The notes under the pieces: generated by a model
What the model saw: only the letters and a program-made list of their open reading frames with translations
What the model was told of the DNA's origin: nothing
The model's database searches: none
Shown here: piece after piece, positions 18,501 to 37,653 of the stretch
Layout: each line of letters opens with the position of its first letter
Position numbering within the stretch: the first letter of the stretch is position 1
NCBI GenBank assembly: GCA_043733905.1
Contig: JAYTGA010000299.1
Coordinates: 85 to 64,084 of the forward strand
Direction of reading: 5' to 3'
DNA length: 64,000 nucleotides
Source: Segetibacter sp.
GTDB lineage: Bacteria > Bacteroidota > Bacteroidia > Chitinophagales > Chitinophagaceae
Translations under genes and position numbers: made by a program

Positions 18501-19000
18501 CCGAGTGGCAGTTTCCCATTCCATGTTTCAGCAGCCTTCCAGAAATGTGCGGTTGCAGGATTGTTATTATCAGGCGCAGAAATGCTGCAACGGTTAATCA
18601 CATCTTCAATCATTCCCTCAAGCCCCATGTGACGGCCATCGTCAGGACTATAAATGCGGGTGATACCATAGTCCTGCAGTTCCTTTATTTCCGCCGGAAG
18701 AATAGTGCCGCCGCCGCCACCAAATATTTTGATGTGGCCGCAACCGTTTTCATTCAGCAGGTCTTTCATGTACTTAAAAAACTCAACGTGGCCGCCCTGG
18801 TAGCTGGTAATGGCAATGCCCTGCGCATCTTCTTCAATGGCACATTCTACTATTTCTGCCACGCTGCGGTTATGCCCCAGGTGTATGATTTCAGCACCCA
18901 TAGACTGCATAATGCGGCGCATCACATTGATGGCTGCATCGTGTCCATCGAAAAGAGAAGCTGCGGTGACTATTCTTACTTTATGGGTGGTGGGGGTCAT
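15587..19000 (-). CDS. icmF: Fused isobutyryl-CoA mutase / MeaB-like GTPase (IcmF-type methylmalonyl-CoA mutase family)
   Basis: N-terminal B12-binding [10 protein letters not shown]-loop GTGGAGKSS, and C-terminal mutase barrel ([17 protein letters not shown]). Confidence 0.92.
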
Positions 19001-19098
19001 ATTTGTGCTTTTGAAACGATTTCTGAAAAACTAAGCATTGCACAATCAGAGGCCATTTTCATTCTGAGAAAAATTGACCCAATATTGGCAGGCAGGTG

Positions 19099-19106
19099 CA
19101 AAATTA
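19099..19106 (-). promoter_or_regulatory. Bacteroidota -7 promoter box TAATTTTG upstream of icmF
   Basis: Exact TAnnTTTG(CA) about 100 nt upstream of the start. Confidence 0.55.
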
Positions 19107-19454
19107 AGGTGTTTTGGGAAGGGATTGGGAGGGAGAAAGTAAATTGGAAAGGAGAACTATAGAATGTGAATAGAATTTTGTGTTGAACTTTGGTAATAAA
19201 GGCAGGAAAACGAGTTGCGACCAAAAATAGTGTGCTATTGCATTTACAAATTGAGAAACAAAGATTGGTAATTTCATGCCTCAAATCCAAAGAGTATTCT
19301 GAATAGTTACGTTCAACAAAGGAGTTGAAATAAAATTGATTGAAAAATTAGCATTTTAAATAAACTAACCTAAAATGAATAGTTAGACCTATTCACTTTA
19401 TATTGCTACCGATATGCTTTTTGTCAATACTGCAAAGACAAATTAAAATTATAA

Positions 19455-22400
19455 ATGACATCAAACTTTTTTACAAACCAAGGTGAGAATACTCTCTACA
19501 AAAAATTTGTAGGGGTGTTTGCACACATGCAAAACATAGAATACTTCAAATCAGTTATCGGTTATTTCAGAGCATCGGGATATTTCGCCATACGCAAACA
19601 TTTTCCAAACGACTTGAAAGTAAAAATTATTGCAGGAATAAATGTTGACCCTTTCATTGCTTTGGCTCAAAAGCAAGGGTTGCTTTTTAACCTCAATGCA
19701 AAAGACACCAAAGAAACTTTTATTGAATCTATACAAGACGACATTTTCAGTGCGAAGTATGGAAAGGAAATTGAAGAAGGAATTCTTCAACTCATAAGCG
19801 ACATTGCAGACGGTAAAATTGAAATCAGAGCACACAACTCAAAGAAGCTTCATTCCAAGTTTTACATTTTCCTTTCTCCAAACTTCAACGAACACAATCC
19901 AAACGGAATGGTGATAATGGGTTCTTCAAATCTATCTGCACAAGGTTTAGGTTTAGAAGATGTTCAACACAATTACGAAATGAATGTGGAGTTGAGAGAT
20001 TATGAGAATGTAAAATTTGCCGACACAGAGTTTGAAAAACTTTGGGAACAAGGCACAGCGATACTTCCAGTTGATGCACCTGCATTGATTAAGAAAACTT
20101 ATTTGGATGCTACTCCTACTCCCTTTGAATTATTCGTAAAATTTCTGATTGAGTTTTTTGGAAAGAACATTGAGTATGACCCCGACAGTATCAGCGATAT
20201 TCCGTTGAAGAAGTTTAAAAAGTTGAGTTACCAAATTGATGCAGTCAATCAAGGTTATGAATTGCTTTTGAAATACAACGGTTTCTTTTTAGCTGATGTA
20301 GTAGGAACTGGAAAAACAGTAATGGCTGCTTTGCTTGCTAAGAAATTCATCATCCAAAACGGACCAAAAACAAAAGTGTTGGTGGTTTACCCGCCAACAC
20401 TTGAGAAGAACTGGAAAAGCACTTTTAAAGAATTTAGGATTGACGACAAGTGCCACTTCATTGCAAACGGAAGTTTGAATAAAATTGTGGAAGGCGACCA
20501 TAACTATGCAGACAAAGAACGATACGATTTAATTCTTGTGGACGAAGCCCACAAGTTTAGAAATCACAGAAGCCAACAGTTTGAAAACCTGCAAGTGATT
20601 TGCAAAAGCGGCAGAGAAAATATTGGAGCTGTTGAAGGCTATGAAAAAAAGATTGTGCTGATTTCAGCAACTCCTTTGAACAACAAACCCGAAGACATTT
20701 ATTATCTCATTTCACTTTTTCAAGACATACGCAACAGCAATTTGGGTGAACCCAATTTGCAGCGTTATTTCTATCCTCACATCATTCGTTACAAAACTTT
20801 GATTCAGCAAACTCCTTTGGACTTAGCGGCAATCCAAGACATCTTTAATGACATCAGAGATAAAGTTGTAAAGGATATTACCATAAGAAGAACCCGAACT
20901 GACTTAAAGAAAAATGAACGCTATGCAAAGGACTTGATAGCCCAGGGAATTACATTTCCAAAGGTTGCCGATCCTTTTGCAAACGAATACGAATTACCAG
21001 ACGATTTAGCAGCCCTATTTATAGAAACATCAAACTGTTTAATTGACAGCAACAGAATTGATTTTTTCCGCTATCAGGCAATTGCTTACTTGACAGACGA
21101 AGCCAACAATGGTGTGTATCAAAATGCTCAAACCATTTCCCGTTCATTGGCTTTTATCATGCAAACGCAACTGATAAAAAGATTGGAGAGTAGTTTTTTC
21201 GCTTTCAAAAAATCATTGAACAAAATCACTATTTCAACTTTGCAAATGATTGAAATGTTTGAGAGAGACAATATTTTTATTGCTCCCGACCTTGACATTA
21301 CTGATTTGCTTAACCAAGGAAAGAGTGATGAAGAAATTGAAATTGAGATTCTGAAAATTGATGATGAAAAACCAAAGAACAAAAAATTCAAACAATCAGA
21401 TTTCAAAAACGGATTCATAGAAGGTTTAAGAACTGACTATGAAAATTTAAAATCGCTAAATGATAAATGGCAAGCTGTTGACGAAGAACACAACGACCCG
21501 AAGTGGAATGTATTTATTGACTTGTTGAAAAACGAATATTTCAATAAAAACAAAAACGAATTAGGCAAGTTGGTAATCTTCACAGAATCGGTTGACACTT
21601 TAAATTACTTAACAAAGCGACTGACAAAGGAAACTGACTACAAAATTTTAAGCATCACTTCAGAAAACAGAAACAAAGAATTTGAAACCATCCGTGAAAA
21701 TTTTGATGCGAATTACGAAGGCACTTTCAGACATGACTTTGACATCATTCTAACAACCGATGTATTAGCAGAGGGAATAAACTTGCACAGAGCCAATGTA
21801 ATTGTAAACTATGATACGCCTTGGAATCCAACCCGGCTAATCCAGCGACTTGGACGGATAAACCGAATTGGAACAAAAGCAAATTTCATTTACAACTACA
21901 ATTTTTATCCTTCGCAACATGGCGACATGGTTATTAATTTGAAAGAACGCAGCGAAGCAAAACTGCAAAGCAGCCACACAGCTTATGGTGAGGACAGCAG
22001 AATTTATTCGTTGAGAGAAATCATTGACCAGTGGGCAATGTTTGAAGAAAAAGAAGAAGAAACCGATTTGAGAACAGAATGGTTGGAGTGGTTGCGGAAA
22101 TACAGAGAACAAAACGAAGAACACTTTAATGCCATTCGAAAAATGCCTTTGAAAGTTCGGTGCATTAGGGAATTAAAAATTAAAAATGAAGAATTAAAAA
22201 TCAAAGAACCCAATTTTTTACTTTTCACTTTTCATTCTTCATTTAGTGTTGCCTTTGTAAAAAATGGTGATTACAAAAACATTTATGTTCATGTAAACGG
22301 AAAATCGTTTGCACTTCCATTTGAAAAAGCAGTAAAGATTTTTGAAGCGCAAAAATCAGAGCAAGGAATTTTACCCGTGCCTGATGTGCATTACGACCAA

Positions 22401-22772
22401 ATCAATGCAATCATTGAACAGTTTGAAAGAGACATTACAACTCCCGAAATGATTGGCGGAAACAATGACAAATTAGATGTGCGTTCAAACAAAGCATTGA
22501 ACGATTTGAATAATTGGTTGGCAAACCAAATTCTTTCTTCGCCTGATGCCATTGAAGCAGGAACAAATCTTTTGCCTCTATTGAAACACGGCACTTATGC
22601 AAACTTGACAAACGAAGTTTATAAATTGAGAAACGAAACCAATGCAATAAAATTAGAAATAGAGTTGATAAAACTTTCACGGAAATACACTTCTAAAATA
22701 AAGCGACAAGCAAAAAAAGAAGTAGAGCCATTGAATCCAAAAATTATCATCTCTGAAACTTTTGTATCATAA
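19455..22772 (+). CDS. PLD-nuclease / SF2 (SNF2-like) helicase fusion
   Basis: N-terminal HSKFYIF...GSSNLS (HxK PLD), LADVVGTGKT (Walker A), VDEAH, ISATP, TDVLAEGINL and QRLGRINR. Confidence 0.9.
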   Translation: MTSNFFTNQGENTLYKKFVGVFAHMQNIEYFKSVIGYFRASGYFAIRKHFPNDLKVKIIAGINVDPFIALAQKQGLLFNLNAKDTKETFIESIQDDIFSAKYGKEIEEGILQLISDIADGKIEIRAHNSKKLHSKFYIFLSPNFNEHNPNGMVIMGSSNLSAQGLGLEDVQHNYEMNVELRDYENVKFADTEFEKLWEQGTAILPVDAPALIKKTYLDATPTPFELFVKFLIEFFGKNIEYDPDSISDIPLKKFKKLSYQIDAVNQGYELLLKYNGFFLADVVGTGKTVMAALLAKKFIIQNGPKTKVLVVYPPTLEKNWKSTFKEFRIDDKCHFIANGSLNKIVEGDHNYADKERYDLILVDEAHKFRNHRSQQFENLQVICKSGRENIGAVEGYEKKIVLISATPLNNKPEDIYYLISLFQDIRNSNLGEPNLQRYFYPHIIRYKTLIQQTPLDLAAIQDIFNDIRDKVVKDITIRRTRTDLKKNERYAKDLIAQGITFPKVADPFANEYELPDDLAALFIETSNCLIDSNRIDFFRYQAIAYLTDEANNGVYQNAQTISRSLAFIMQTQLIKRLESSFFAFKKSLNKITISTLQMIEMFERDNIFIAPDLDITDLLNQGKSDEEIEIEILKIDDEKPKNKKFKQSDFKNGFIEGLRTDYENLKSLNDKWQAVDEEHNDPKWNVFIDLLKNEYFNKNKNELGKLVIFTESVDTLNYLTKRLTKETDYKILSITSENRNKEFETIRENFDANYEGTFRHDFDIILTTDVLAEGINLHRANVIVNYDTPWNPTRLIQRLGRINRIGTKANFIYNYNFYPSQHGDMVINLKERSEAKLQSSHTAYGEDSRIYSLREIIDQWAMFEEKEEETDLRTEWLEWLRKYREQNEEHFNAIRKMPLKVRCIRELKIKNEELKIKEPNFLLFTFHSSFSVAFVKNGDYKNIYVHVNGKSFALPFEKAVKIFEAQKSEQGILPVPDVHYDQINAIIEQFERDITTPEMIGGNNDKLDVRSNKALNDLNNWLANQILSSPDAIEAGTNLLPLLKHGTYANLTNEVYKLRNETNAIKLEIELIKLSRKYTSKIKRQAKKEVEPLNPKIIISETFVS

Positions 22773-22773
22773 T

Positions 22774-23826
22774 ATGAGCAAACTTAAAATTGATAAGAAC
22801 GCTGATTTTGAACAAGTTCTTTTACTTATTCAAGAAGCCCGTAGCAGAGTTTTCAGCAAAGCAAATGCTGAATTAGTGATGCTATATTTTAATGTAGGCA
22901 AAATGGTTTCTCAAAAAGTAAGTCAAGGAATTTGGGGAGAATCTGTTGTTGATGAACTGGCTAATCACATTGAAATACGTCTACCAGAACTTACAGGATT
23001 TAACCGTAGAGGGCTTTATAGAATGAAGCAATTCTTTGAAACCTATTCTAATCCGCTATTTGCGTCAACAGTGATGACACAAATAGAAATTGCTGAAAAT
23101 GAAGCCGAAAAATTTGTGACAACAGCGTTGACACAAATACAATGGAGTGCCCACCTGCACATTCTCAACAAAACAAAAACGGTAGAGGAAAAATTGTTTT
23201 ATATCCAATTAGCTATTAACGAAAAGTTATCAGTTCGGGAATTAGAAAGGCAATTGAACACTGCTGTTTATGAAAGGACAATGTTGAGTAATAAAATTGT
23301 GCCGCAGCCCGTGGCACAATTACCCCCAAACCTTTTTAAAGACCCATACATTTTTGAATTCCTTGATTTACCCGATATCCATTCAGAAAAAGATTTAGAA
23401 AAAGCACTTATTCAAAATCTTCAAAAATTTATATTGGAAGTGGGCAAAGGCTTCACTTACATGGGCAACCAATACCGCTTGCAGGTAGGCAATAAAGATT
23501 ACTACACCGACCTACTGTTTTACCACCGAGACCTGCAATGCCTTGTTTTATTTGAACTGAAAATTGAAGATTTTGCTCCTGAATTTTTGGGCAAACTCAA
23601 TTTCTATTTAGAGGCGTTGGATAGAGATGTAAAAAGACCAAACGAAAAGCCAAGCATAGGTATTCTGCTTTGCAAAGGAAAAGATACAGAAGTGGTAGAA
23701 TACGCTATGGCAAGAAATACCAGCCCTGCTGTAATAGCAGATTATGAAACCAAACTGATTGACAAAAAAGTATTAGCACAAAAACTTCATCAGCTTTCAG
23801 AGCTATTTAAAAAAGACATTGATTAA
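22774..23826 (+). CDS. DUF1016 / YhcG PD-(D/E)XK nuclease domain protein
   Basis: WSAH, KDPYIFEFL, GFTYMGNQYRL, YTDLLFYHR.L.CLVLFELK and PSIGILLC motifs. Confidence 0.92.
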   Translation: MSKLKIDKNADFEQVLLLIQEARSRVFSKANAELVMLYFNVGKMVSQKVSQGIWGESVVDELANHIEIRLPELTGFNRRGLYRMKQFFETYSNPLFASTVMTQIEIAENEAEKFVTTALTQIQWSAHLHILNKTKTVEEKLFYIQLAINEKLSVRELERQLNTAVYERTMLSNKIVPQPVAQLPPNLFKDPYIFEFLDLPDIHSEKDLEKALIQNLQKFILEVGKGFTYMGNQYRLQVGNKDYYTDLLFYHRDLQCLVLFELKIEDFAPEFLGKLNFYLEALDRDVKRPNEKPSIGILLCKGKDTEVVEYAMARNTSPAVIADYETKLIDKKVLAQKLHQLSELFKKDID

Positions 23827-26800
23827 TGACAATCACTGAAATACGAAGCATATTAGAAAGCCCTTACGACAGGAAGGTTTGGAAAGCTTTTATCCAAACC
23901 CAGTTCACCAACAACAAACTGAATGTTGAGGACAGAGCCATTTCTTTATCTGATAAAACTTTGAGCAAGCAATGTTTGGCATTGGGAAATTATGAAGTGG
24001 ATGAATACACCAAGATTGGAATCTTTGAAGTAGAGCTGAATGAGAAAGTAAACATCACAAGAAACAGAGTTGTCTTACGCAACCTCATTAAAGACATTAC
24101 CAAACAAGTTTCGGGTGCAATGGTGGTGTTTGTGCAAGGCGACAAGTGGCGTTTCAGCTACATCAGCAAACGAAAAATAAAAAACAAAGACACCAACGAA
24201 ATACAAGACAAAGAAACAGCCCCGAAGCGTTACACTTATTTGTTTGGTAAAAATGAAAAAGCCAAAACTGCCGCTGATAGATTTGATAAGCTAATAAAAA
24301 AGCAACAAGGAAATATTTTTCAGTTCTTAACGCTGAATGATTTTGAAGAAGCATTCTCTGTAGAAAAATTGAGCAAAGAGTTTTTCAAAAACTATAAAGA
24401 CACTTATGAAGATTTTGTGCAGTTCATCACAGGCAAGCGTTACGGCAAGCAAGGCAACAAGTATGTGGAACAGGTAATACACAAACCCAACTGGCAACTT
24501 ACTTCCTTGTTTGGCAAAGACGAAAAGCAAGCCCGTGATTTTTGCAAACGCATGATGGGTAGAATTGTGTTTCTCTATTTCATACAAAAGAAAGGTTGGC
24601 TTTCTTGTCCAATGGTTAATGGTCAATTATCAATTGTTAATTGGGGTGCAGGAGACCCTGACTATCTTTATAATTTATTCAATAACTCAAATAGTAAGGA
24701 TGACTTTTATAGCACTGAATTAGTAAATCTATTTTTCAAAACATTAAACAACCCAGATTCGGAAAAACCAATTAACCATTTACCATTAACAATTAATAAT
24801 TTCAAAGCTTTTCCGTATTTGAATGGTGGTTTGTTTGACGATAGCCACGATAAGAAATACAACAAATTGCATTTGCCCGAAACGGTTTTCAAAACACTTT
24901 TTGAAACATTCAACAACTTCAACTTTACCGTGTATGAAGATGCACCCGATGAACACACCGTAGCGGTTGACCCCGAAATGTTGGGACACATTTTTGAAAA
25001 CCTGTTGGAAGACAACAAAGACAAAGGAGCATTCTATACACCCAAAGAAATTGTGCATTACATGTGCAAGGAAAGTTTGAATGCTTACTTGATTACCAAA
25101 ATGAGTGAGGATGCTTCTGCTCCCCTCTCCTTTGGAGAGGGGCTGGGGGTGAGGTGCATTGAGCATATTATTCAGCAACAGGAATTGAGCAGCGATGAAA
25201 AACAATATGCCGAAAAGAACGCTTACAAAATAATTGATGCTTTAGAGAAGGTAAAAATTTGCGACCCTGCTATAGGTTCGGGTGCATTCCCAATGGGTTT
25301 GTTGCAGGAAATTTTTAATGCCCAGATTTATTTGCAGGAGTTGAAAGGATTTAAAAAAGGAATTACTGATGCACAAATAAAAAAGCACATCATTGAAGAA
25401 AGCATTTACGGAGTTGACATTGATGCAGGGGCCGTTGACATTGCACGGCTTCGCTTTTGGTTGAGCTTGGTAGTGGACGAACAAGTGCCGCAACCATTGC
25501 CCAACCTTGACTTTAAGATTGTTTGTGCCAATACATTGATAACTACAGGTTATGACAAGTTTGTTGAATTAGCAGAGAAAACGCAAACACCTACTTTGCT
25601 TAGAATGGATGGAGAAATTCAAAAACTCCAATCTATCAGAGACAAATATTTTGATGAAAGTAATAAAGCCAAAAAGGAGAATTTAAAAGTTGAGTTTGTT
25701 CAAACAAGAGATTACATTCTTGCTGAATTTCAGAGTTTGAAAAAAAATTATGCTCTTGGTGATTTTTTAGATAAAATTTCTGAGTGGCATCCTTTTGAAG
25801 AAACATCTTGTTCTTGGTTTGATGCACAATGGATGTTTGGTATTAAAGAAGGGTTTGATATTGTGATTGGTAATCCGCCTTATGTAAACATTGCGAACAT
25901 TAAGGATGAAAAATATAGAAGTACTTTAAAATCAATATTCTATTCAGCAAGGAATAAATCAGATTTATACGCATTCTTTTTAGAGAAAGGATTTAACCTT
26001 TTGAAGCCAAAAGGAACATTGAGTTACATTATACCGCAAACATGGAAAGCAACCGACAGCTTTATGAAATTAAGAGAAATCATATTTAAAGATAAGTCTG
26101 TTTTAAAGTTGATTGATTTAGATTTTGGAGTTTTTGATGCCATCGTAAAACCTATGGTGGTATTAATTTCAAATGAGAAAAACAAGAATAGTTCCTTTGA
26201 TATTTTAGACAGTTCATTCACAATAAAATCAAATGTTCGTGTTGCAGATATTTTGAATGATAAAGCGTTAACTTTAAATACAAACTTTGATGAAAATCAA
26301 AAGGAGCTTTTTAAGATTATTGAGTTAGGTAGTTCGTCTCTAATCAATTTTATAAAATTCTCAAGAGGTATTAAAACGAGTGATGATGGCAGATTTATTC
26401 AAACTGAAAAAATAAATGATGATTATAAAAAAATTTATCGTGGTAAAAACATTAAGGCTTATCAATTAAATTGGAATGAAGAATTTATTTGGTATAGACC
26501 AGATTTGATGAAAGAAAAGGTAGGCTCTGTTTCCTATACTAAAAGTTTTTTTGAAGTTCCCGAAAAGTTGATTACTCAAAGAGTAAACAGTTCAATGCAA
26601 CTTCTATGTGCATATGATAATGAACAAAACTATTTTTTAGATACAACTAATGTTTCCCGTTTTGATAGTTGGGACAAAAAAACTTCTCTCAAATTATTGT
26701 GTGGACTTTTAAACTCAAAAGTCTTGAATTATTGGTATTGCAATAAATATTTGATGCCAACTATTGGCATTTATGAATTACATACAGTTCCAATTAAAAT

Positions 26801-27170
26801 ACCTTCTAACTCTTTCCCATTCATAAATCTTGTTGATTATTTATTATATCTAAACAATAAAAAATCGAAAACTATCCTCTCCCACACTGAAAATCTGCGT
26901 TTAGCTTCTCACTTACAAGAAGTACTAAACATGATGGTTTATGAACTGTATTTTGAAAAGCACATGAAACAAAACGGCATTGATGTATTGCAGTTTATCA
27001 ATCCAAAACCAATTGCAGAAATAAAAGGAGAAAAGGAAAAAGCCGAAGTAATCAAAGATTTTTATTTGTGGTATCAAAAACCCGAAAACCCTGTAAGGCA
27101 ACGAATGCTTTTAGTAGAAACACGAAGCAAAGACAAAATTGCTTTAATCAATAAAAGTATTCAGCAATGA
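23826..27170 (+). CDS. Eco57I-like (type IIG/TaqI-like) N6-adenine DNA methyltransferase with target-recognition C-terminus
   Basis: YLNGGLF, GAFYTPKEIV, DPAIGSGAF (SAM binding) and FDIVIGNPPY (catalytic) motifs; TaqI-C-like TRD. Confidence 0.9.
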   Translation: MTITEIRSILESPYDRKVWKAFIQTQFTNNKLNVEDRAISLSDKTLSKQCLALGNYEVDEYTKIGIFEVELNEKVNITRNRVVLRNLIKDITKQVSGAMVVFVQGDKWRFSYISKRKIKNKDTNEIQDKETAPKRYTYLFGKNEKAKTAADRFDKLIKKQQGNIFQFLTLNDFEEAFSVEKLSKEFFKNYKDTYEDFVQFITGKRYGKQGNKYVEQVIHKPNWQLTSLFGKDEKQARDFCKRMMGRIVFLYFIQKKGWLSCPMVNGQLSIVNWGAGDPDYLYNLFNNSNSKDDFYSTELVNLFFKTLNNPDSEKPINHLPLTINNFKAFPYLNGGLFDDSHDKKYNKLHLPETVFKTLFETFNNFNFTVYEDAPDEHTVAVDPEMLGHIFENLLEDNKDKGAFYTPKEIVHYMCKESLNAYLITKMSEDASAPLSFGEGLGVRCIEHIIQQQELSSDEKQYAEKNAYKIIDALEKVKICDPAIGSGAFPMGLLQEIFNAQIYLQELKGFKKGITDAQIKKHIIEESIYGVDIDAGAVDIARLRFWLSLVVDEQVPQPLPNLDFKIVCANTLITTGYDKFVELAEKTQTPTLLRMDGEIQKLQSIRDKYFDESNKAKKENLKVEFVQTRDYILAEFQSLKKNYALGDFLDKISEWHPFEETSCSWFDAQWMFGIKEGFDIVIGNPPYVNIANIKDEKYRSTLKSIFYSARNKSDLYAFFLEKGFNLLKPKGTLSYIIPQTWKATDSFMKLREIIFKDKSVLKLIDLDFGVFDAIVKPMVVLISNEKNKNSSFDILDSSFTIKSNVRVADILNDKALTLNTNFDENQKELFKIIELGSSSLINFIKFSRGIKTSDDGRFIQTEKINDDYKKIYRGKNIKAYQLNWNEEFIWYRPDLMKEKVGSVSYTKSFFEVPEKLITQRVNSSMQLLCAYDNEQNYFLDTTNVSRFDSWDKKTSLKLLCGLLNSKVLNYWYCNKYLMPTIGIYELHTVPIKIPSNSFPFINLVDYLLYLNNKKSKTILSHTENLRLASHLQEVLNMMVYELYFEKHMKQNGIDVLQFINPKPIAEIKGEKEKAEVIKDFYLWYQKPENPVRQRMLLVETRSKDKIALINKSIQQ

Positions 27171-27472
27171 GTAGAATAAAATCCATACACATAAACAACT
27201 TCAAATTTTTTGATGAGCAACCACCAATTGAGTTGGGTGAAACGGGAAAACATTTGTTGTTATTTGGCGAAAATGGAAGCGGTAAGAGTTCGGTGTATTG
27301 GGCTTTATACACTTTGTTTGAGTGTGCCGCTAAAGATGATATAGAGGAAGGGATAAAAAAGTATTTCAAAGATGTAGAGAGCCATAACGAATCATTGGTT
27401 AACATCCCCTCGCTGGTTTCAGCCTTGCGAAGCAGACTGAAATCTAAAAAGAAAACAAAGATCTCCCGATGA
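27167..27472 (+). pseudogene. Truncated AAA/ABC-type ATPase (N-terminal Walker A only)
   Basis: RIKSIHINNFKFF...LLLFGENGSGKSS. The last ~22 codons are read-through into repeat copy 1 starting near 27406. Confidence 0.8.
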
Positions 27473-27520
27473 AAAATCAGGACGGGTTTCGACCGGTAAA
27501 AATTGAACAAGCTAAAAGAA
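27406..27520 (+). repeat. Cassette-boundary repeat copy 1
   Basis: CCCCTCGCTGGTTTCAGCCTTGCGAAGCAGACTGAAATCTAAAA...CGACCGGTAAAAATTGAAC. Confidence 0.9.
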
Positions 27521-27634
27521 AATGACCAATCATAAGGTCGTGATATTTTCGATTAAATTTGTAAAAACGAATGAGTACTGTACATAACTATAAAAGAGAT
27601 TTATGAATCAGGCAAAGTGATGCTTTCAGAAGAA

Positions 27635-27748
27635 CCGCCGCTGGTTTCAATTTTGCGAAACGGACTGAAATCTAAAATGGAATGTAGGTTTCCAGATGAA
27701 AAATCGGGAGAGGTTGCGACAGGTAAAAATTGAACAATTTAAAAGAAG
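27635..27748 (+). repeat. Cassette-boundary repeat copy 2
   Basis: CCGCCGCTGGTTTCAATTTTGCGAAACGGACTGAAATCTAAAA...GCGACAGGTAAAAATTGAAC. Confidence 0.85.
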
Positions 27749-27784
27749 GTAAACTAAAACCTCAAAAACTCATAATTTTGAAGT

Positions 27785-28027
27785 ATGACAAGCACTTATC
27801 GTTTAAATGTCAATGAGCTATCAATGGACTTGCTTAGTTCCATCAGGGCAGCTTTTAAGGATAAAGAGGTAGAAATCACTGTGACAGAAGCAATAGATGA
27901 AACCGATTATTTATTGTCCTCCGAAAAAAACAAGTCAAACCTTCACGAATCACTTCATTCATTGCAAGAAGGGAAAGGGGTTACATTCACTATACAGGAA
28001 TTGGAAGAAAAGTATGGTGCAAAATGA
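27785..28027 (+). CDS. Putative antitoxin cognate to YoeB (non-Phd-like N-terminus, YefM-like C-terminal DETDYLLSS..N..NL..S)
   Basis: 80 aa acidic protein, overlapping yoeB (ATGA); TAATTTTG box at 27773-27780. Confidence 0.7.
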   Translation: MTSTYRLNVNELSMDLLSSIRAAFKDKEVEITVTEAIDETDYLLSSEKNKSNLHESLHSLQEGKGVTFTIQELEEKYGAK

Positions 28028-28284
28028 AAACCATTACTTTAAGCCCTCAAGCTTTGGAGCACCTGGACGATTGGAAAAAGTCTGATCCCAAGGCACTTGC
28101 AAAAATTATTTCCCTGATTGTTGAAACCGCTTCCAATCCTTTTGCCGGCACAGGAAAGCCTGAACCTTTAAAACATTCACTAAAAGGAAAGTGGTCAAGA
28201 AGAATTACACAGGAACATAGGTTAGTGTACGAAGTGAAAGAAGAAACTATATGGATAGTATCATGCAGATTTCATTATGATTGA
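28024..28284 (+). CDS. yoeB: Txe/YoeB family toxin
   Basis: PFAGTGKPEPLKHSLKGKWSRRITQEHRLVY...CRFHY. Confidence 0.93.
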   Translation: MKTITLSPQALEHLDDWKKSDPKALAKIISLIVETASNPFAGTGKPEPLKHSLKGKWSRRITQEHRLVYEVKEETIWIVSCRFHYD

Positions 28285-28307
28285 TTAAAGTCCCTCCTGT
28301 TTTCAGT

Positions 28308-28423
28308 CCCCCCGCTGGTGTCAGTCTTGCGAAGCAGACTGAAATCTAAAAAGAAAACAAAGGTCTCCCGATGAAAAATCAGGACGGGTTTCGACCGATA
28401 AAAATTGAACAGGCTAAAAGAAA
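28308..28423 (+). repeat. Cassette-boundary repeat copy 3
   Basis: Near-identical to copy 1; preceded by a partial extra start CCCTCCTGTTTTCAGTC at about 28292-28308. Confidence 0.9.
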
Positions 28424-28478
28424 TGAGTAACAGTTCGGTCGTGCAAATTTCGAGTAAATTTGTATAAACGAATCAGCA

Positions 28479-28681
28479 ATGTACACAACCATAAAAGGGG
28501 TTTATGAAGCAGGCAAAGTGATGCTTTCAGAAGAGCCGCTGGTAAATGAGCAATCGGATGTGACGGTTACATTTTTGCTGAATGAGGTCAAGCCAATGAA
28601 TAAACCCAAACGAATATTGAGAGGATTATAAGGAAAATCAATACCCCTGATGATTTTAATGAGCCATTGGAAGAAAAGTAG
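28479..28681 (+). pseudogene. Degraded VapB-like (DUF104/DUF2281-type) antitoxin
   Basis: MYTTIKGVYEAGKVMLSEEP...GL* followed by a frameshifted GK(I)NTPDDFNEPLEE. An interrupted second copy of its 5' end lies at about 27580-27640. Confidence 0.65.
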
Positions 28682-28796
28682 GGTGCAAAATGAAAAATTT
28701 GAAACTGCAACAATTCAATGCCTAAAATAGCAATATACAAGTTCCTTACTTTTTACATTTTTTGCTTATGACGTTTAAATGAACCACCTCATTTGC

Positions 28797-28997
28797 ATGT
28801 CGCCAAAGAAAAAGGTAAACCGGCAGCGTTCTGCAAAAATCTGGCTACAAACATTTGAGATTGCAGAGAAAGGAAGTTTGACTGATCGCGATGTAAACCA
28901 AGCACTAAAATTGATAAAAAATAATCAGCAAATTTTAATGGTTGCCTTTAACAAGGTTAAAGCAGGACAAAAAATAACCACCATAAAATTGAAATAG
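28797..28997 (+). CDS. Small basic hypothetical protein, probable TA partner of DUF2442
   Basis: 66 aa from ATG 28797; ends 2 nt before the DUF2442 gene. Confidence 0.55.
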   Translation: MSPKKKVNRQRSAKIWLQTFEIAEKGSLTDRDVNQALKLIKNNQQILMVAFNKVKAGQKITTIKLK

Positions 28998-28999
28998 TC

Positions 29000-29260
29000 A
29001 TGGCAGATTTATTGAAAAACAAAACAATGAGTATTGAAAAAATCCTTTTTGACACTCCTGGAAAAATAACGATAAAGTTAGAAGATGGAAGAATGTTTAT
29101 CAGCCCGCTTAAATATTTCCCGGAACTAAAAAAATTAAAAATGGATGAGCGTAAGAAATACACGATTGTGGACGATAGAACAATTTTATTTTCATTTTCC
29201 AACTCCATTTACCATTTGGAGGATTTTGTGGGCTTGGAAAGCAAATGGAGAGAGCGGTAG
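29000..29260 (+). CDS. DUF2442 domain protein
   Basis: I.IKLEDGR.F..PL.YFPEL...ER.KY.I pattern of DUF2442. Confidence 0.75.
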   Translation: MADLLKNKTMSIEKILFDTPGKITIKLEDGRMFISPLKYFPELKKLKMDERKKYTIVDDRTILFSFSNSIYHLEDFVGLESKWRER

Positions 29261-29275
29261 TACCGTATAAATTTT

Positions 29276-29375
29276 CCCCTGCTGATTTTGGTGTTATGGT
29301 CTGTTTTAAGTTTTAGCGAAGCGAATTAAATCTAAAAGGAAAAACAACGTTTGCGATGGGTAAAATCGAATAAGC
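29276..29375 (+). repeat. Cassette-boundary repeat copy 4 (degenerate)
   Basis: CCCCTGCTG...TTTTAAGTTTTAGCGAAGCGAATTAAATCTAAAAG...TTGCGATGGGTAAAATCGAA. Confidence 0.6.
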
Positions 29376-29422
29376 CTGAATGAAAAATGAACGATGTTTT
29401 GGGCTATCAAAAAACAAATCAA

Positions 29423-29656
29423 ATGAAAACCACTCAAAATTTTACGGCAATTATTGAAAAAGAAGACGAAAGCTATGTGGCCTTATGTCCCGAATTGGAT
29501 ATTGCAAGCCAGGGAGAAACAATAGAAGAAGCCAAGCGCAACCTCCACGAAGCTATTGAGCTTTTCTTTGAGTTTGCTTCTAAAGACGAGATAACCCATA
29601 GACTAAAAAGCAAGATTTTCATTACAAACATGCAGGTAGCAGTGGAGTATGCTTAG
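29423..29656 (+). CDS. hicB: HicB family antitoxin
   Basis: FTAIIEKEDESYVALCPELDIASQGETIEEAKRNLHEAIELF. Confidence 0.9.
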   Translation: MKTTQNFTAIIEKEDESYVALCPELDIASQGETIEEAKRNLHEAIELFFEFASKDEITHRLKSKIFITNMQVAVEYA

Positions 29657-29864
29657 AATTCTGTCGGGCAAAGAGGTTTGTAAAATCCTTGCCAATCATG
29701 GATTTGCAGAGGTTCGTCAGAAAGGAAGCCATATTATCATGCAAAAAAGGACGGGCAACACGACGATAACAGTACCTGTACCAAATCATCTGAAATTAAA
29801 ATTGGTACCCTGCTTCCATCAAACGCCAATCGGATATCTTAAAAGACTTTTTGAAACGAAATAA
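29649..29864 (+). pseudogene. hicA: HicA toxin, frameshifted
   Basis: LSGKEVCKIL..HGF.EVRQKGSHIIM...VPVPNH. Adding one base near 29790 and one near 29815 restores EIKIGTLL-SIKRQS, the HicA C-terminal pattern. Confidence 0.8.
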
Positions 29865-29865
29865 A

Positions 29866-29988
29866 ATGAACGAACATATTTTGTCGGAAGATGACAAGGA
29901 AGATATAGTTTTAGGCCGGCTAATGGAAGAAACCGATACCAATGAAAGAATTGATACCAGTGCTTTTCTTAAAAAACTAAGGAGTTAA
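29866..29988 (+). CDS. Small acidic putative antitoxin (40 aa), missed by the ORF track
   Basis: MNEHILSEDDKEDIVLGRLMEETDTNERIDTSAFLKKLRS*, with a TAATG overlap into the RelE-like gene. Confidence 0.6.
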   Translation: MNEHILSEDDKEDIVLGRLMEETDTNERIDTSAFLKKLRS

Positions 29989-30254
29989 TGCAGGTTATTG
30001 TCATAAAACAGTTTGAAAAAGATATGCATAAAGAACTGAATAAATAATTGCAAATTAAGTTGGCTGAAATTGTAGAAAGCCTGCAAAGTGTTACTTCTTT
30101 ACAAGATTTCCCAAGTTTGAAAAAGCTAAAAGGCTATAGAAACTATTACAGTATCAAGCTCAATGATTATCGCATTGGTTTTGCTCTTGAATCAAACGAG
30201 ATAATTCTGAACAGAGTAATGCACCGTAAAGAAATTTACCGATATTTTCCTTAG
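29988..30254 (+). pseudogene. RelE/ParE family toxin with nonsense codon
   Basis: MQVIVIKQFEKDM...K*LQIKL...LKKLKGYRNYYSIKLNDYRIG...HRKEIYRYFP; in-frame TAA at 30045-30047. Confidence 0.8.
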
Positions 30255-30264
30255 TTGTGCTATT

Positions 30265-30334
30265 CCTCCGCTGGTTTCAGTCTTGCGAGCGGACTGAAAT
30301 CTGAAATGTGTAGGTCTGCGACCGGTAAAAATTT
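30265..30334 (+). repeat. Cassette-boundary repeat copy 5 (short form, no internal palindrome)
   Basis: CCTCCGCTGGTTTCAGTCTTGCGAGCGGACTGAAATCTGAAATGTGTAGGTCTGCGACCGGTAAAAATTT. Confidence 0.85.
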
Positions 30335-30616
30335 AAGTAAAATAATAGACTAAGCAAATAGGTTGACTTATACCTAAGTTATATTCAACTTATACTGTAT
30401 TTATAATGAATCTATTATATATCTACCGTATTGTAACCCTATAGATGCCTTATGTGTAGTGTAGTCAATACTCATGGTTATTTTTGAAAACAAGTTGTAA
30501 GCAGTAACAATGAGCAGCTTATTAGTACTGCAAATGTCTCCCCTGCTGTTTTCTTTGTTTTGGCACTGCTTTACGTTTTAACCAAACAAACCCAAATTAG
30601 CCATTTCTAAAAATTA

Positions 30617-30645
30617 AAAAGGCCGCCTTTTCAGGACAGCCTTTT
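30617..30645 (-). terminator. Intrinsic terminator after the 1027-aa T9SS gene
   Basis: Minus strand GGCUGUCCU-GAAA-AGGCGGCC followed by a U tract. Confidence 0.65.
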
Positions 30646-30666
30646 CAATTTTGTAATCAGTAAAAA

Positions 30667-33600
30667 CTATTTGGCCACGACAAACTTTTGTGTGGTCGTT
30701 TTGCCATTGTTATCAATGACCATGACATAGGCACCGTTGGGCAAAGTGCTTACATCCATTGAGTATTTGGCGGAAGCTTTTATGCCGGAAGTAAATTGTT
30801 TACTTACCAGTTTGCGACCCTGCATGTCCTGAATGTTTACCTGCACGGGGCTGTTGTTTTGCGTAGCATACTCCAATGTAATTGTTGAACCGCTTACAGG
30901 GTTTGGCATGATGCGGACATTCAATTCATTTTCTTTGAGTTGATTTGAAGTCACAGCTACTTCACGTTTAAGTTCGCTTGATGGGCCTTTTTCAGTTTCC
31001 ACGATCACCTTGTTTCCTTTGCAGGAAGGACACATGGAAATAGTTTTGACAACTGTATCACTCTTGGTGATGCCGCAGTTGTTGGTACTGCTCAGTATGT
31101 GGCGGAAACGATAGCGCTGCCCTACGGCAAAAGATGCAGGTGTGGGTGTATTTGTTTCGGTAATAGGACCAGCCGTTCCGTTGTAGCCACCAAATTGTGT
31201 TGTGCTTGCAATTGCCCAAACACTGCCTGAAGTGCCGCTCGGAATGCTTGTGTAAATGGTGCCTGCAATATCAGGATAAGAAGGGCCAACCAAAGATGTG
31301 CGGCTGACAATCCATTGTGAATTGGGTGAGGTGCTAAAACTGTTTGCAAGTATCTGGAAGTATGCAGGGTTGCCGGTTGGCAGATAGCCAAGGAGGGCAA
31401 AGTCTGCATTCAATTTGGCAGTGTCGCTTTCGCAAGGGTTTGTACATTGTGTGCCGCCATTGGTGCCGGTGCAATTTATAGGGAAGTAGTTCACCGAATC
31501 TTTCATCCGGATGTCAACATTGATTACGACATCTGCCACGTCAAACTTGATGTCTTTTACTTCAACTTTTTGAACGGCTGCGCATGTTGTGTCCATTGTT
31601 CCGTCAAACAAAGGCAATTTAACGATTACTCCCTCTTTCAACAATGTTGAAGGATTTATTTTGTAGCCTACAGCAAAAATATTGCTGCCTTCCACAACAA
31701 ATGCCGCGTTGTGAGTAGTACCGTTTACCCATACATTTCTTACACGTCTGCTCCATACTGCATTACCTGATTTGTCGGTACGCAACAGAAACATTTCACC
31801 CAAAGCTCCATTATCTATCGTGGATCGGGAAACGTTGTCAAACCAGTTGCCCTCGGCCACATAGCCAGTCGGATCGGAAGCGACTTTGTTGAAAAATTTA
31901 CGGGTTGTTGTCGTTGCAGGGGCAGGTGTTAGCGTATATTCCCTCTGCCAGTTGGGCACTAAAGTTCCAGCATTGAATGAGGCGATGCCTGTGTTGATAC
32001 CAATATCAGAAGTTGCCGACCAGTCTCCGTGCCATGCATACAAAATATCTTTTTGGTCATTGATAAGGCTGCTGCTATACAACCTTCCTTTAACAGATTC
32101 ATCCTGGATGTATCTCCTGCCTCTCACAAAATCAAGATTCTTATCGTGCATATTATTCCATGGCCTCATGGTTGTTGTGCCTACATGACTAAGCCTTCCT
32201 GTTGCTATCAAATTGCTGTTGCTATCAACATTGCCAGGAGCAAAAACCAATGCATCGTAGCCGTCTTCACCTGCGTGTTGGCTTTTAATGGAAATGATAT
32301 TGCCGGTATTTCTATCCACCTTCAACAACAATACATCTGCCGATGATTGTGTAGTAGATCTGCGTACTGTACCGCTTATATAATACTGTCCACTTGCTTT
32401 ATTATCTTTTACGTCCAGAAAATAAGCTTGGTTGCTACCAGTAATCAACAGGTTTTGATAAGTGCGGTGAAGCAATATGCTCAATGCCGGGCTTAGTTTC
32501 ATTACAAATGAGCGAACCGGCGTGGTTGCTGTGGCTGCCAAATCCATTGAACCTACAATGACAATGTTGCCATCATCGTCTGTTATCATGCTGCGCAGGC
32601 TATATGTTTTGCTGCTGACTCCAACTAATTTTTGCTGAAGCACAACGCCGAGTGCATCCACTTCTGCTACATAAACAGAGCTGTCCTGCACACCAGCCAC
32701 ATAGAATGTAGCAGCAGTCTTTTTAGACCTGGTGATGGAATTGAAAATAAGGTTGCCTGCCCGGCTGGTGTCGTTGCTGCAAGGGCTGGCCGCACCATAA
32801 GTGTTCACAAACCGTTGTTCAGCAGGTGAGCAGGTGAGGTTTAAAATGATCTTGCAGGAATCGCAAATGTTGTTTCCTTTTCCATAATAATAAGTAATCG
32901 TGTACATGCCGGGAGTAGCACCTGCGGGTATAGCAAGTGTGGTACTGGCTGATGACGATGCGATGAAAGAAGCGGCCCAGGCGGGTGTGTTGTTAAAGTT
33001 GTCTTTAAGCGTAGTGCCTTTGAAGGTGGTGGTGCCGCAGCTTGTAGTGGACTGGCAAGCTATGCGCCGGTTGAAGGTGTAATCGGCATTGCACTTAACA
33101 TTATAGGTGCTTCCACAGGCATAATTTTTTGGGCTTATTTGCGGCACATTTACAAGAACTGTACAGCTTTTGTCGCAGCAGTTTGGCTCGCCGTAATTGA
33201 TGTAGCCTGAAAGCATAAAGGCGCCTAGTACATCATAGTAAAAAACCTTTACCCTTATGCGCCAGGTGCCGGCAGCAGGGCAAGATATTTTGTACACAAT
33301 CGGTGATTGCAAAAAACGGCTGTGAGGTGGTCTCGGCAATACTGTGATCACGCCGCTTGGAGAAACCAACTCCACTGATTGAAGTGTGTCATCAATAGCT
33401 ACGCTGAAGTTGGTAACAAAACTGTCCGTGCAAGGGGCAATTGTAAATGGCCTCTCAAAAGTGTAAGTACCCGTATCGTTCACGAACCGTTGAGGAACGG
33501 GGTTTAGCCAACCTGCATTAGTACCTGTCACGGGGCTTGGCTCCCAATAAGGCAGATAAGCACTAACAACAAATGGTGTGTTGCTGGCAACGTTTCCATT

Positions 33601-33750: not shown

Positions 33751-33770
33751 AAAAAATAGTTTTTTGATTG

Positions 33771-33802
33771 TGCCTACTCTATGCAGTTTTCGGCATCGCT
33801 GG
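33771..33802 (-). promoter_or_regulatory. Conserved 32-nt 5'-leader element, copy A
   Basis: CCAGCGATGCCGAAAACTGCATAGAGTAGGCA, 20 nt before ATG 33750; identical to 37654-37685. Confidence 0.6.
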
Positions 33803-37633: not shown

Positions 37634-37653
37634 AAAAATAATTTTTTGTGGTT

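What the first reader, a model, noticed from the sequence alone, without database searches (positions are those of the whole stretch)
27406..30334. Array of toxin-antitoxin cassettes separated by a non-attC hairpin repeat (integron-like architecture without integron signatures)
Seen: five same-orientation copies (27406, 27635, 28308, 29276 degenerate, 30265) of a 70-115 bp element. It starts C(C/T)GCTGG, has the hairpin TTTCAGTC-TTGCGAAGCA-GACTGAAA and ends CGACCGGTAAAAATT. Copies 2-5 bracket units of small genes: antitoxin-yoeB, VapB-like remnant with unknown-DUF2442, and hicBA with antitoxin-relE. TAnnTTTG boxes follow three copies (27554, 27773, 28455). Copy 1 cuts an AAA ATPase gene and copy 2 cuts an antitoxin gene. 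There are no RYYYAAC/GTTRRRY ends, no uniform spacers and no recombinase in the window. Inference: a repeat-mediated cassette-accretion system (a new recombination-site family or MITE/REP-like element) that stockpiles TA and defence genes at the end of an RM island.
Basis: partly seen in the sequence, partly recalled or inferred. Interest (0 to 1): 0.85.

Follow-up and report, generated by a model that had tools for sequence, protein, structure and literature searches.

The report
Repeat-separated toxin-antitoxin module array
At the end of a foreign, low-GC defence island in a Chitinophagaceae-like soil bacterium, decaying toxin-antitoxin gene pairs are separated by same-direction copies of a 76-117-base hairpin repeat that is not an integron site; it looks like a cassette-stacking system of an undescribed type, but an ordinary intergenic repeat family is not excluded.

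Summary
Five same-strand copies of a 76-117-nt repeat, plus a sixth degenerate one, lie in window 27405-30620. None lies elsewhere in the 64 kb. They separate small, self-promoted toxin-antitoxin (TA) modules, most now pseudogenes.

The repeat is not an attC: no R boxes, no end-to-end hairpin. It is not a MITE (no TIR or TSD), matches no Rfam family, and no recombinase is in the window.

New evidence:
- Homology of the yefM-yoeB module to other genomes stops at the repeat borders.
- The repeat's C-rich left end (TCCCCNGCTGG) is fused to truncated genes three times: twice here, once in another metagenomic genome that carries the same repeat.
- Two inserts are flanked by long, diverged duplications of their target.
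- Related Chitinophagaceae contigs hold the same modules between three unrelated repeat families. One family ends in the same CCCCNGCT motif.

Best reading (about 0.4): a fossil accretion array of "repeat + TA module" units joined at the repeat's left end by a recombinase encoded elsewhere. Main rival (about 0.35): a REP/BIME/BOX-like intergenic repeat family plus homologous or illegitimate recombination.

Exact-pattern scans of 185,579 genomes and the JGI metagenomes found no copy. Enzyme and genome-wide distribution remain untested.

The parts
19000..30660 (.). Low-GC island (about 36% GC against 44-47% in the flanks). It holds a PLD-SNF2 helicase, a DUF1016/YhcG protein, an Eco57I/MmeI-type methyltransferase-endonuclease, then the TA array.
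   Evidence: composition; Pfam of called genes
27167..27410 (+). N-terminal fragment (about 80 aa) of an AAA_15/AAA_23 ATPase. It overlaps the methyltransferase stop codon and is cut off at the left end of c1.
   Evidence: only profile positions 1-68 of 201 and 3-55 of 374 are matched
27405..27521 (+). Repeat copy c1, long form, 95% identical to c3.
27522..27638 (+). Promoter box (TAAATTTG, 27554-27561) and 5' remnant of the 50-aa ORF. It duplicates 28424-28539 (81%) and ends at CCGCCGCTGG, where c2 begins.
   Evidence: (family D4)
27633..27747 (+). Repeat copy c2, long form, about 83% identical to c1 and c3. Its left end is fused to the truncated 50-aa ORF.
27748..28291 (+). yefM-yoeB module. 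Promoter box TAATTTTG at 27773-27780, YefM-like antitoxin at 27785-28027, YoeB toxin at 28024-28284. The only apparently intact module.
   Evidence: Homology to L014, L026, L027 and L035 begins at 27723-27761 and ends at 28285-28291
28307..28423 (+). Repeat copy c3, long form. Its hairpin loop contains GCGAAGC.
28424..28631 (+). Promoter box (28455-28462) and a 50-aa ORF (28479-28631) with no family. It contains GAGCCGCTGGTA, the sequence at which its truncated twin is joined to c2.
28662..28696 (+). 35-nt relic of a second yefM/yoeB junction. It is 97% identical to 28000-28030 and 91% to L014.
   Evidence: (family D9)
28722..29260 (+). DUF4160 (frameshifted; ORF 28779-28997) and DUF2442 (29000-29260) pair.
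29275..29375 (+). Repeat copy c4, degenerate. It has a c6-like left end with about 19 extra nt, then a c1-like body containing AGCGAAGCG.
   Evidence: (families D1, D12)
29387..30254 (+). hicB (29387-29656), hicA (29649-29864; C-terminus looks frameshifted), RelB-like ORF (29851-29988), and a ParE/RelE-like pseudogene (29988-30254; in-frame TAA at codon 20).
30263..30339 (+). Repeat copy c5, short form. It has the left end, a perfect 8-bp hairpin and the right end, but no middle module.
30340..30537 (+). AT-rich spacer with no gene family. It holds a TAnnTTTG box at 30479 and a 23-codon hydrophobic ORF (30510-30581) that runs into c6.
30538..30620 (+). Probable sixth, very degenerate copy, c6. 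It lies next to the terminator of the convergent T9SS-cargo gene (30667-33750, minus strand).
   Evidence: (family D12)

Best explanation
The region is a fossil accretion array. It is a head-to-tail stack of small units. Each unit is one copy of a lineage-specific 76-117-nt repeat followed by a self-promoted toxin-antitoxin module.

The repeat has four parts:
- a C-rich left end (TCCCCNGCTGG);
- a hairpin whose loop in three copies is GCGAAGC, the very stable single-stranded-DNA mini-hairpin;
- an optional middle module;
- an A/T-rich right end (GGTAAAAATTGAAC).

Proposed mechanism: a unit, sometimes with extra flanking DNA, is cut out as a circle. The breaks are at the repeat's left end and at a second site. 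That second site is either another repeat or a look-alike sequence inside a gene. The circle is then joined in again at the left end of a resident repeat or at such a look-alike site. The enzyme would be encoded elsewhere in the genome. The array therefore grows by stacking. Off-target events leave truncated genes fused to the left end, and long duplications of the target around the insert.

Shown: the anatomy, clustering and orientation, the module borders, the three truncated-gene junctions, the two flanking duplications, and the shared terminal motif with an unrelated repeat family.

Inferred: the circles, the enzyme, its single-strand or double-strand mode, and the direction of growth.

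Most genes and several repeats are now degraded, so the array is probably no longer active.
For: 1. Distribution. Six same-strand copies lie in 3.2 kb and none in the other 60.8 kb. If orientation were random, six copies would all share one orientation with probability about 0.03 (my calculation).

2. Modules are discrete. Window-to-L014 homology (88%) spans 27745-28291, from the right border of c2 to 16 nt before c3. Homology to L026, L027, L035, L016 and L024 starts at 27723-27772 and ends at 28280-28291.

3. The repeat travels with the downstream module. A degenerate long-form copy lies directly upstream of yefM-yoeB in L027 and L034, in continuous homology with c2 plus the module. c1 and c3 are each followed by the same small ORF.

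4. Truncated ORFs abut the left end three times:
- the AAA ATPase at c1;
- the 50-aa ORF at c2, at a CCGCTGG that the intact copy also has;
- a response-regulator 3' fragment at r1 (repeat copy 1) of L027 and L034.
The missing gene halves do not follow the repeats, so these are not simple insertions.

5. Both inserts are flanked by long, diverged direct duplications of the target. In the window these are 27405-27638 and 28307-28539 (81-95%). In L027 they are 861-970 and 1847-1956 (89%). A circle carrying a piece of flank, re-integrated, would give this.

6. Repeats are better conserved than adjacent DNA: c1/c3 95% against 81%.

7. Terminal motif.
- All four exact CCYCNGCTG matches in 64 kb are the left ends of c3-c6.
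- In the unrelated L016 repeat family, all six CCCCNGCT matches are on one strand, five of them at repeat ends.
- Three strains diverge within about 20 nt of that end.
- In L035 a truncated DUF2442 is fused to the terminal piece of that module at a microhomology.

8. The same modules (yefM-yoeB, hicAB, DUF2442) lie between four unrelated direct-repeat families in four contig groups. This parallels species-specific attC families.

9. GCGNAGC is a documented, extraordinarily stable DNA mini-hairpin (PMC13037366).
Against: - No recombinase lies in the window or in any of the related loci.
- No circle or alternative module order was seen for this family. Three or four samples share the same order.
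- The hairpin shows no compensatory changes; substitutions simply break it.
- Whole-repeat folds are no better than shuffles.
- In L016 and L024 the ancestral hicA-yefM spacer holds unrelated repeats while the flanking modules are 75-80% identical. This fits repeats invading spacers better than repeats travelling with cassettes.
- L024 repeats lie between ordinary genes and in both orientations.
- Divergence 'at the end of a repeat' is also what homologous recombination between copies would give.
- The family is rare. Exact-pattern scans of GTDB genomes and JGI metagenomes gave only chance hits. The sample is therefore 6+4 copies.
Confidence: 0.4

Rival explanations
1. The repeat is a REP/BIME/BOX-like mosaic intergenic repeat family. 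It may be moved in trans by a single-strand (HUH-type) transposase whose strand preference follows replication. It colonised the spacers of a tolerant TA island. The truncated genes, duplications and strain differences come from homologous or microhomology-mediated recombination between copies, not from a cassette system.
For: - It has modular long and short forms.
- It has subterminal hairpins with single-stranded-DNA-type loops and no TIR or TSD.
- Orientation is uniform.
- L024 carries several mosaic repeat families between ordinary genes, some inverted.
- The L016-type repeat also lies next to non-TA genes.
- The orthologous hicA-yefM spacer is filled by unrelated repeats in L016 and L024.
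- The hairpin decays without compensation.
- No local recombinase was found.
Against: - There is no copy in the other 60.8 kb of the window, across about 35 intergenic regions.
- The window genome lacks the GCAGAACGGAAC-type repeats of its relatives.
- The missing halves of the three truncated genes are absent.
- Repeat and downstream module stay linked across genomes.
- No copy was found in GTDB species genomes or JGI metagenomes by exact pattern.
Confidence: 0.35
2. The repeats are att-site scars. Larger integrative elements inserted one after another at the same attachment site. Deletions then removed integrases and cargo, but addictive TA modules and att repeats survived (accretion and decay, as for CIME-type elements).
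For: - The array sits at the end of a low-GC island.
- In L027 the insert replaces and duplicates the 3' end of a response-regulator gene. This is the usual signature of integrases that target gene ends.
- Genes show heavy decay and there is a 35-nt module relic.
Against: - The units are only 0.2-1 kb.
- No integrase remnant was found by ORF or Pfam inspection.
- The other two junctions cut genes in their 5' parts, not at gene ends.
- Relatives of L027 have the TA module at the same place without repeat or duplication.
Confidence: 0.1
3. The array is purely local history. Tandem duplication and unequal crossing-over of one ancestral 'repeat + module' unit were followed by replacement and decay of the genes. 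No specific mechanism attaches to the repeat.
For: - c1 plus its flank and c3 plus its flank are a 235-nt duplication.
- All copies are direct and adjacent.
- The c2 junction lies at a 7-nt microhomology.
Against: - The modules between the repeats are unrelated gene families.
- The same repeat occurs at a different locus in another organism.
- Parallel arrays with other repeat families exist.
Confidence: 0.08
4. The repeat is a structured RNA element, such as an sRNA, a 5'-UTR regulator, or an antisense terminator insulating neighbouring TA operons.
For: On the minus strand, c1 and c3 carry a terminator-like hairpin plus T-run. The repeats lie between transcription units.
Against: - There is no Rfam match, even at E up to 10.
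- Fold z-scores range from -1.5 to +1.4, no better than shuffles.
- There is no covariation.
- The terminator-like part is missing from c4, c5 and c6.
- Promoter boxes belong to the modules, not to the repeat.
Confidence: 0.04

Closest known systems
Sedentary chromosomal integron arrays / CALINs (clusters of attC sites lacking an integrase)
   Same: - Same-orientation repeats of about 60-140 nt separate cassettes of about 0.3-1 kb.
- The arrays are rich in TA modules with their own promoters.
- Repeats are highly similar within an array but differ between lineages.
- There is no adjacent integrase, as in a CALIN.
- Junctions form with look-alike secondary sites.
   Different: - There are no RYYYAAC/GTTRRRY boxes.
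- The two ends do not pair into one long hairpin.
- The junction lies at the end of the repeat that faces the preceding module, so almost the whole repeat sits upstream of its module.
- Integrons are almost unknown in Bacteroidetes: one complete integron in IntegronFinder 2.0 (PMC9024848).
REP/BIME elements of Enterobacteria and Pseudomonas, and BOX elements of Streptococcus pneumoniae (from my own knowledge of these families)
   Same: - They are short, hairpin-bearing, modular intergenic repeats with long and short forms.
- They lack TIRs and TSDs.
- No enzyme is encoded nearby.
- Related genomes here show mosaic intergenic repeats.
   Different: - Those families are dispersed genome-wide in tens to hundreds of copies, often as inverted pairs.
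- This one has six direct copies in 3.2 kb and none in the other 60.8 kb.
- This one is fused to truncated genes.
IS200/IS605-derived palindrome-associated elements (PATEs) and other HUH single-strand transposon ends (from my own knowledge)
   Same: - There are no inverted terminal repeats and no target duplication.
- There are hairpins near the ends with stable single-stranded-DNA loops.
- A conserved sequence lies at the left boundary.
- Copies are in a uniform orientation.
   Different: - The conserved left motif is about 10 nt, longer than the 4-5-nt targets of that family.
- Interrupted genes lack their second halves.
- The elements sit with cargo modules in tandem.
- No TnpA was seen, and the whole genome could not be searched.
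pdif (XerC/XerD) modules of Acinetobacter plasmids (from my own knowledge)
   Same: Small modules, often TA pairs, are bounded by short recombination sites and act through a recombinase encoded elsewhere.
   Different: - pdif sites are 28-bp 11-6-11 sites that alternate in orientation.
- Here the repeats are 76-117 nt, all direct, and without an 11-6-11 core.
- The location is chromosomal.

Membership tests
Integron attC / CALIN | R'' (RYYYAAC) and R' (GTTRRRY) boxes at the two ends of each site | tested here: not met
   No R''...R' pair 50-150 nt apart lies on either strand of 27300-30700. Only one R'' and one R' match were found in all.
Integron attC / CALIN | The two ends of the site pair, so the single strand folds into one long imperfect hairpin with extrahelical bases | tested here: not met
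   Single-stranded-DNA folds of both strands of all six copies give only local hairpins, with z from -1.5 to +1.4.
Integron attC / CALIN | At least 2 sites in the same orientation, spaced by cassette-sized intervals | tested here: met
   Six direct copies with start-to-start spacing of 228-986 nt.
Integron attC / CALIN | Match to the attC covariance model of IntegronFinder | not testable with these tools
   The model is not available here. A negative result is expected, given the two unmet features above.
Complete integron | An IntI tyrosine recombinase adjacent to the array | tested here: not met
   Pfam on 20 ORFs of 176-405 aa, plus precomputed Pfam for 18-29 kb, found no Phage_integrase.
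MITE | Terminal inverted repeats and target-site duplications | tested here: not met
   Read directly from the sequence. The left end TCCCCCCGCTGG has no inverted match at the right end ...AAAAATTGAAC. The flanks of c1-c5 share no duplicated k-mer. Inspection by eye only.
REP/BIME/BOX-type dispersed repeats | Many copies dispersed through the genome's intergenic regions | tested here: inconclusive
   None was found outside the array in 64 kb. The rest of the genome is not available. The source species was not hit in GTDB or JGI by exact pattern.
IS200/IS605-type PATE | Subterminal hairpins at both ends, and a short conserved target immediately 5' of the left end | tested here: inconclusive
   Hairpin 1 starts about 10 nt from the left end. 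Only weak small hairpins lie near the right end. The conserved left motif is about 10 nt.
IS200/IS605-type PATE | A cognate Y1 transposase in the same genome | not testable with these tools
   Only 64 kb of the source genome is available.
CRISPR array | Short identical repeats with uniform-length spacers | tested here: not met
   Repeats are 76-117 nt and 60-95% identical. Spacers run from about 110 to about 890 nt and contain genes.
Known RNA families (Rfam 15) | Score at or above a family's gathering threshold | tested here: not met
   No match in the window or in L016, L022, L024 or L027. At E up to 10 only chance-level hits appear, and none sits on the repeats in a consistent way.

The most novel reading that the evidence does not exclude
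Chitinophagaceae carry an integron-like gene-cassette platform of a new type. TA and other small modules would be stacked and exchanged at lineage-specific hairpin repeats. These repeats share only a short C-rich core (CCCCNGCT) with each other and share nothing with attC. The recombinase would be unknown, acting in trans, and possibly single-strand-specific.
Probability: 0.25. Interest if true: 0.85.

Novelty: new variant of a known kind. Interest (0 to 1): 0.55.

Why it matters
Integrons are the only well-understood platform that stacks promoter-bearing or promoter-less gene cassettes. They are almost absent from Bacteroidota.

If these repeat-bounded TA arrays are made by a dedicated recombination system, that would be a second, independent invention of cassette stacking in a large soil phylum. 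It would bring a new site type and a new enzyme to find. It would also help explain how TA and defence modules move between genomes without a visible mobile element.

If the repeats are instead a REP/BOX-like family, the locus is still a clear example of small repeats remodelling a defence island: gene truncations, 110-235-nt duplications, and strain-specific neighbours. It would also be a first description of such repeat families in Chitinophagaceae.

Tried and rejected
- **Known RNA or known site.** Rfam at gathering and at E up to 10 gave nothing. The attC box and fold tests were negative.

- **More copies by DNA pattern.** One genome-contig scan gave 6 chance hits in Streptococcus and other taxa. 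One metagenome scan gave 3 hits, read and rejected as chance. Four viral scans gave none. Plasmid blastn gave none. They needed exact matches at 20-22 positions, so diverged relatives would be missed.

- **Protein search with the repeat's open minus-strand frame.** The aim was to catch spurious ORFs called over similar repeats elsewhere. No candidate was found.

- **Homologues of the 50-aa ORF.** Only the ORF itself was found, so the idea that 'repeat + this ORF' is a unit elsewhere could not be tested.

- **Homology between the four repeat families.** None was found in either orientation against shuffles. Only the short terminal motif is shared.

- **SEC-C protein next to the L016 array as a candidate recombinase.** Rejected. 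It is an acidic protein with a C-terminal SEC-C metal-binding motif only.

- **The repeat as the coding C-terminus of upstream genes.** c1 and c2 are read in the same frame by the truncated ORFs, and c3 and c4 are in frame after stop codons. However, c1 against c3 shows 3 non-synonymous changes to 1 synonymous, and c5 is out of frame. Treated as coincidence.

- **Cassette variation between L016 and L018/L020 upstream of yefM.** This was only a difference in gene calling.

Full report
**1. What is there**

Window 27405-30620 holds six same-strand copies of one repeat.
- c1 (27405-27521), c2 (27633-27747) and c3 (28307-28423) are the long form, about 117 nt.
- c5 (30263-30339) is a short form without the middle part.
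- c4 (29275-~29375) is degenerate.
- c6 (30538-30620) is barely recognisable, but shares its first 25 nt with c4 and has the A/T-rich end.

A profile built from four copies finds nothing else in the 64 kb. The 34-nt core is expected 0.00 times by chance.

The repeat consists of:
- a C-rich left end, TCCCCNGCTGG;
- a hairpin, TTTCAGTC-loop-GACTGAAA;
- a stretch ATCTAAAA;
- an optional middle module with a second small hairpin;
- the end CGACCGGTAAAAATTGAAC.

In c1, c3 and c4 the loop is GCGAAGC, a documented, unusually stable DNA mini-hairpin (PMC13037366).

**2. The genes between the copies**

The genes are:
- the N-terminal roughly 80 aa of an AAA_15/AAA_23 ATPase, cut at c1;
- a promoter plus 5' remnant of a 50-aa ORF, cut at c2;
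- an apparently intact YefM-like/YoeB pair;
- the full 50-aa ORF, which has no family or homologue;
- a 35-nt relic of another yefM/yoeB junction;
- a frameshifted DUF4160 with DUF2442;
- hicB with a probably frameshifted hicA;
- a RelB-like ORF with a ParE/RelE gene that carries an in-frame stop.

The three TAnnTTTG boxes are real and lie just before start codons. The motif is depleted in the window overall, 47 against 80 expected. This fits its known role as the Bacteroidetes -7 promoter element (my own knowledge).

The array ends a low-GC island, 19.0-30.7 kb at about 36% GC against 44-47% in the flanks. The island begins with a PLD-SNF2 helicase, a DUF1016 protein and an Eco57I/MmeI-type enzyme.

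The source is a metagenome (BUSI22-1 samples). YoeB relatives are labelled Hanamia and Ginsengibacter, both Chitinophagaceae.

**3. What it is not**

- Not an attC. No R''/R' box pair lies on either strand. Neither strand folds end to end, and fold energies equal those of shuffles.
- Not a MITE. No terminal inverted repeats or target duplications are visible.
- Not a known RNA.
- Not a CRISPR array.
- No integrase, resolvase or transposase lies in the window.

The hairpin is real in the consensus: 83% of pair cells are paired, against 23-38% for slid controls. It has no compensatory changes, and mutations simply break it.

**4. Evidence from elsewhere**

Exact-pattern scans of 185,579 species genomes and of the JGI metagenomes returned only chance matches. 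The family is therefore rare or narrowly distributed.

Through YoeB homologues I fetched 20 contexts. These gave five results.

(a) The yefM-yoeB module is a discrete unit. Its homology to L014 (88%) runs from 27745 to 28291, that is, from the right border of c2 to just before c3. L014 has no repeat.

(b) The window-type repeat exists in another organism. L027 and its strain variant L034 carry a short-form copy (r1). They also carry a degenerate long-form copy (r2) directly upstream of yefM-yoeB, in continuous homology with c2 plus the module.

(c) In L027 the segment with r1, r2 and yefM-yoeB lies inside the 3' end of a response-regulator gene.
- It is flanked by a 110-nt direct duplication of that gene end, 89% identical.
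- The truncated copy abuts the repeat's left end.
- Relatives (L029-L033) have the module at the same place without the repeat or the duplication.

(d) The window shows the same topology. c1 plus the 5' part of the 50-aa ORF (27405-27638) and c3 plus the same ORF (28307-28539) are a 235-nt diverged duplication flanking c2-yefM-yoeB. The junction into c2 lies at a CCGCTGG that the intact ORF also contains.

(e) Three other, unrelated direct-repeat families surround the same kinds of modules.
- These are the L016 type, the L024 type and the L035 type.
- The L016 family has at least 9 co-oriented copies over 9 kb.
- Its G-rich end reads CCCCNGCT on the other strand, the same motif as the window repeat's left end.
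- Three strains diverge within about 20 nt of that end.
- In L035 a truncated DUF2442 is fused at a microhomology to the terminal piece of that module.

**5. Interpretation**

Several facts fit movement of 'repeat + module' units through circular intermediates, joined at the repeat's left end. This is integron-like logic with a different site and an enzyme encoded elsewhere. The facts are:
- tight clustering and uniform orientation;
- module borders that coincide with the repeats;
- three truncated genes fused to one end, without their other halves;
- long diverged duplications flanking two inserts;
- a repeat that stays with its downstream module in two organisms;
- a terminal motif shared with an unrelated family.

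I put this reading at about 0.4.

The main rival, at about 0.35, is a REP/BIME/BOX-like intergenic repeat family plus homologous or illegitimate recombination. The evidence for it:
- L024 has mosaic repeats between ordinary genes, some inverted.
- L016 repeats also flank non-TA genes.
- The ancestral hicA-yefM spacer holds unrelated repeats in L016 and L024, while the flanking modules are 75-80% identical.
- Divergence at the end of a repeat is also what recombination between copies would produce.

Lesser rivals are att-site scars of serially integrated elements, purely local duplication, and an RNA element.

The array is largely pseudogenes and is the same in three or four samples. Whatever built it is probably no longer acting on it.

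**6. Novelty**

Nothing in the literature searches describes such arrays in Bacteroidota. IntegronFinder 2.0 reports a single complete integron in the phylum (PMC9024848).

I file this as a new variant of a known kind: a cassette-like array, or a dispersed hairpin repeat, with sites of a new type. It is not established as a new system.

The decisive data are a genome-wide census of the repeats, read-level evidence for circles, and a co-occurring enzyme.

Noticed in passing
window 19000-30700: A sharp low-GC island (about 36% against 44-47%) lies between a fused MeaB/methylmalonyl-CoA-mutase gene and a T9SS-cargo gene. It holds a PLD-SNF2 helicase, DUF1016/YhcG, an Eco57I/MmeI-type enzyme and the truncated AAA_15 ATPase. 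It looks like one horizontally acquired defence system whose last gene was destroyed by the array.
   Followed up: partly
window 30479-30581: A TAnnTTTG box at 30479 is followed by a 23-codon hydrophobic ORF (MSSLLVLQMSPLLFSLFWHCFTF). The ORF runs into c6. c4 encodes a similar peptide (FPLLILVLWSVLSF) in the matching frame. This could be a type-I-toxin-like peptide or a coincidence.
   Followed up: no
window 27400-29300 (c1-c4): The repeat is read in one and the same frame by the truncated AAA ORF (c1) and by the truncated 50-aa ORF (c2). It is in frame after the stop codons of yoeB (c3) and DUF2442 (c4), but not after relE (c5). The chance of this is about 0.05 by my estimate. There is no sign of coding constraint.
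   Followed up: partly
window ~29294 (inside c4): The ENA contig BUSI22-1 scaffold_4510 ends here, although no repeat of 31 nt or more in the window explains an assembly break. This may reflect strain heterogeneity at this repeat. Logan contigs start at about 28368, which the near-identical c1 and c3 cores do explain.
   Followed up: no
window 57813-58376: A cluster of about five copies of a 28-31-nt perfect palindrome (AACTTGAAGTCACAATTTGTGACTTCAAGTT and an ATATC variant). It lies partly inside and mostly just upstream of an ORF6N (KilA-N-like) gene at 57494-58069.
   Followed up: no
window 11850-11972: Three tandem copies of a 41-nt unit (GTAGAAATGGCAAAATACTT...), next to the start of the 852-aa gene at 9148-11706.
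   Followed up: no
window 52040-53155: A bacterial type IB topoisomerase (Topoisom_I plus Top1B_N_bact). This is uncommon in bacteria and is unrelated to the array by position.
   Followed up: no
window 33735-33809 and 37618-37692: A 75-nt direct repeat (84%) covers the upstream regions and first codons of two neighbouring large secreted-protein genes. These are probably paralogous promoter and leader regions.
   Followed up: no
L016 8950-18250 (and L017-L023, L028): A separate array holds at least 9 co-oriented copies of an unrelated repeat of about 110-160 nt, with C-GCA-G triloop hairpins. The repeat ends in GCAGAACGGAACAC-N-GAGAGCTGGGG. It lies between hicAB, yefM-yoeB, two DUF433/DUF5615-PIN pairs and several non-TA genes. 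Three strains have three different continuations after the copy at 11206-11318.
   Followed up: partly
L024 4380-16640: Several mosaic intergenic repeat families lie between ordinary genes, in direct and inverted orientation. Some share the GCAGAACGGAACA...CTGGGG piece with L016. Chitinophagaceae genomes from this habitat appear rich in undescribed small repeats.
   Followed up: partly
L035 385-1290: A fourth repeat family (about 100 nt, a 15-bp hairpin, and a left end TTTCCCCCCG in one of its two copies) flanks a yefM-yoeB pseudogene. After it, a DUF2442 5' fragment is fused to CTTACAACTGGGG, the terminal piece of the L016/L024-type module.
   Followed up: partly
L027 744-1956 compared with L029-L033: There is a presence/absence polymorphism of about 500 nt between a histidine-kinase gene and the TA module. 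The segment holds a response-regulator 3' fragment, two repeat copies and 117 nt of unique sequence. The left half of r1 is far more diverged between L027 and L034 than the 88% average, which suggests conversion from other copies.
   Followed up: partly
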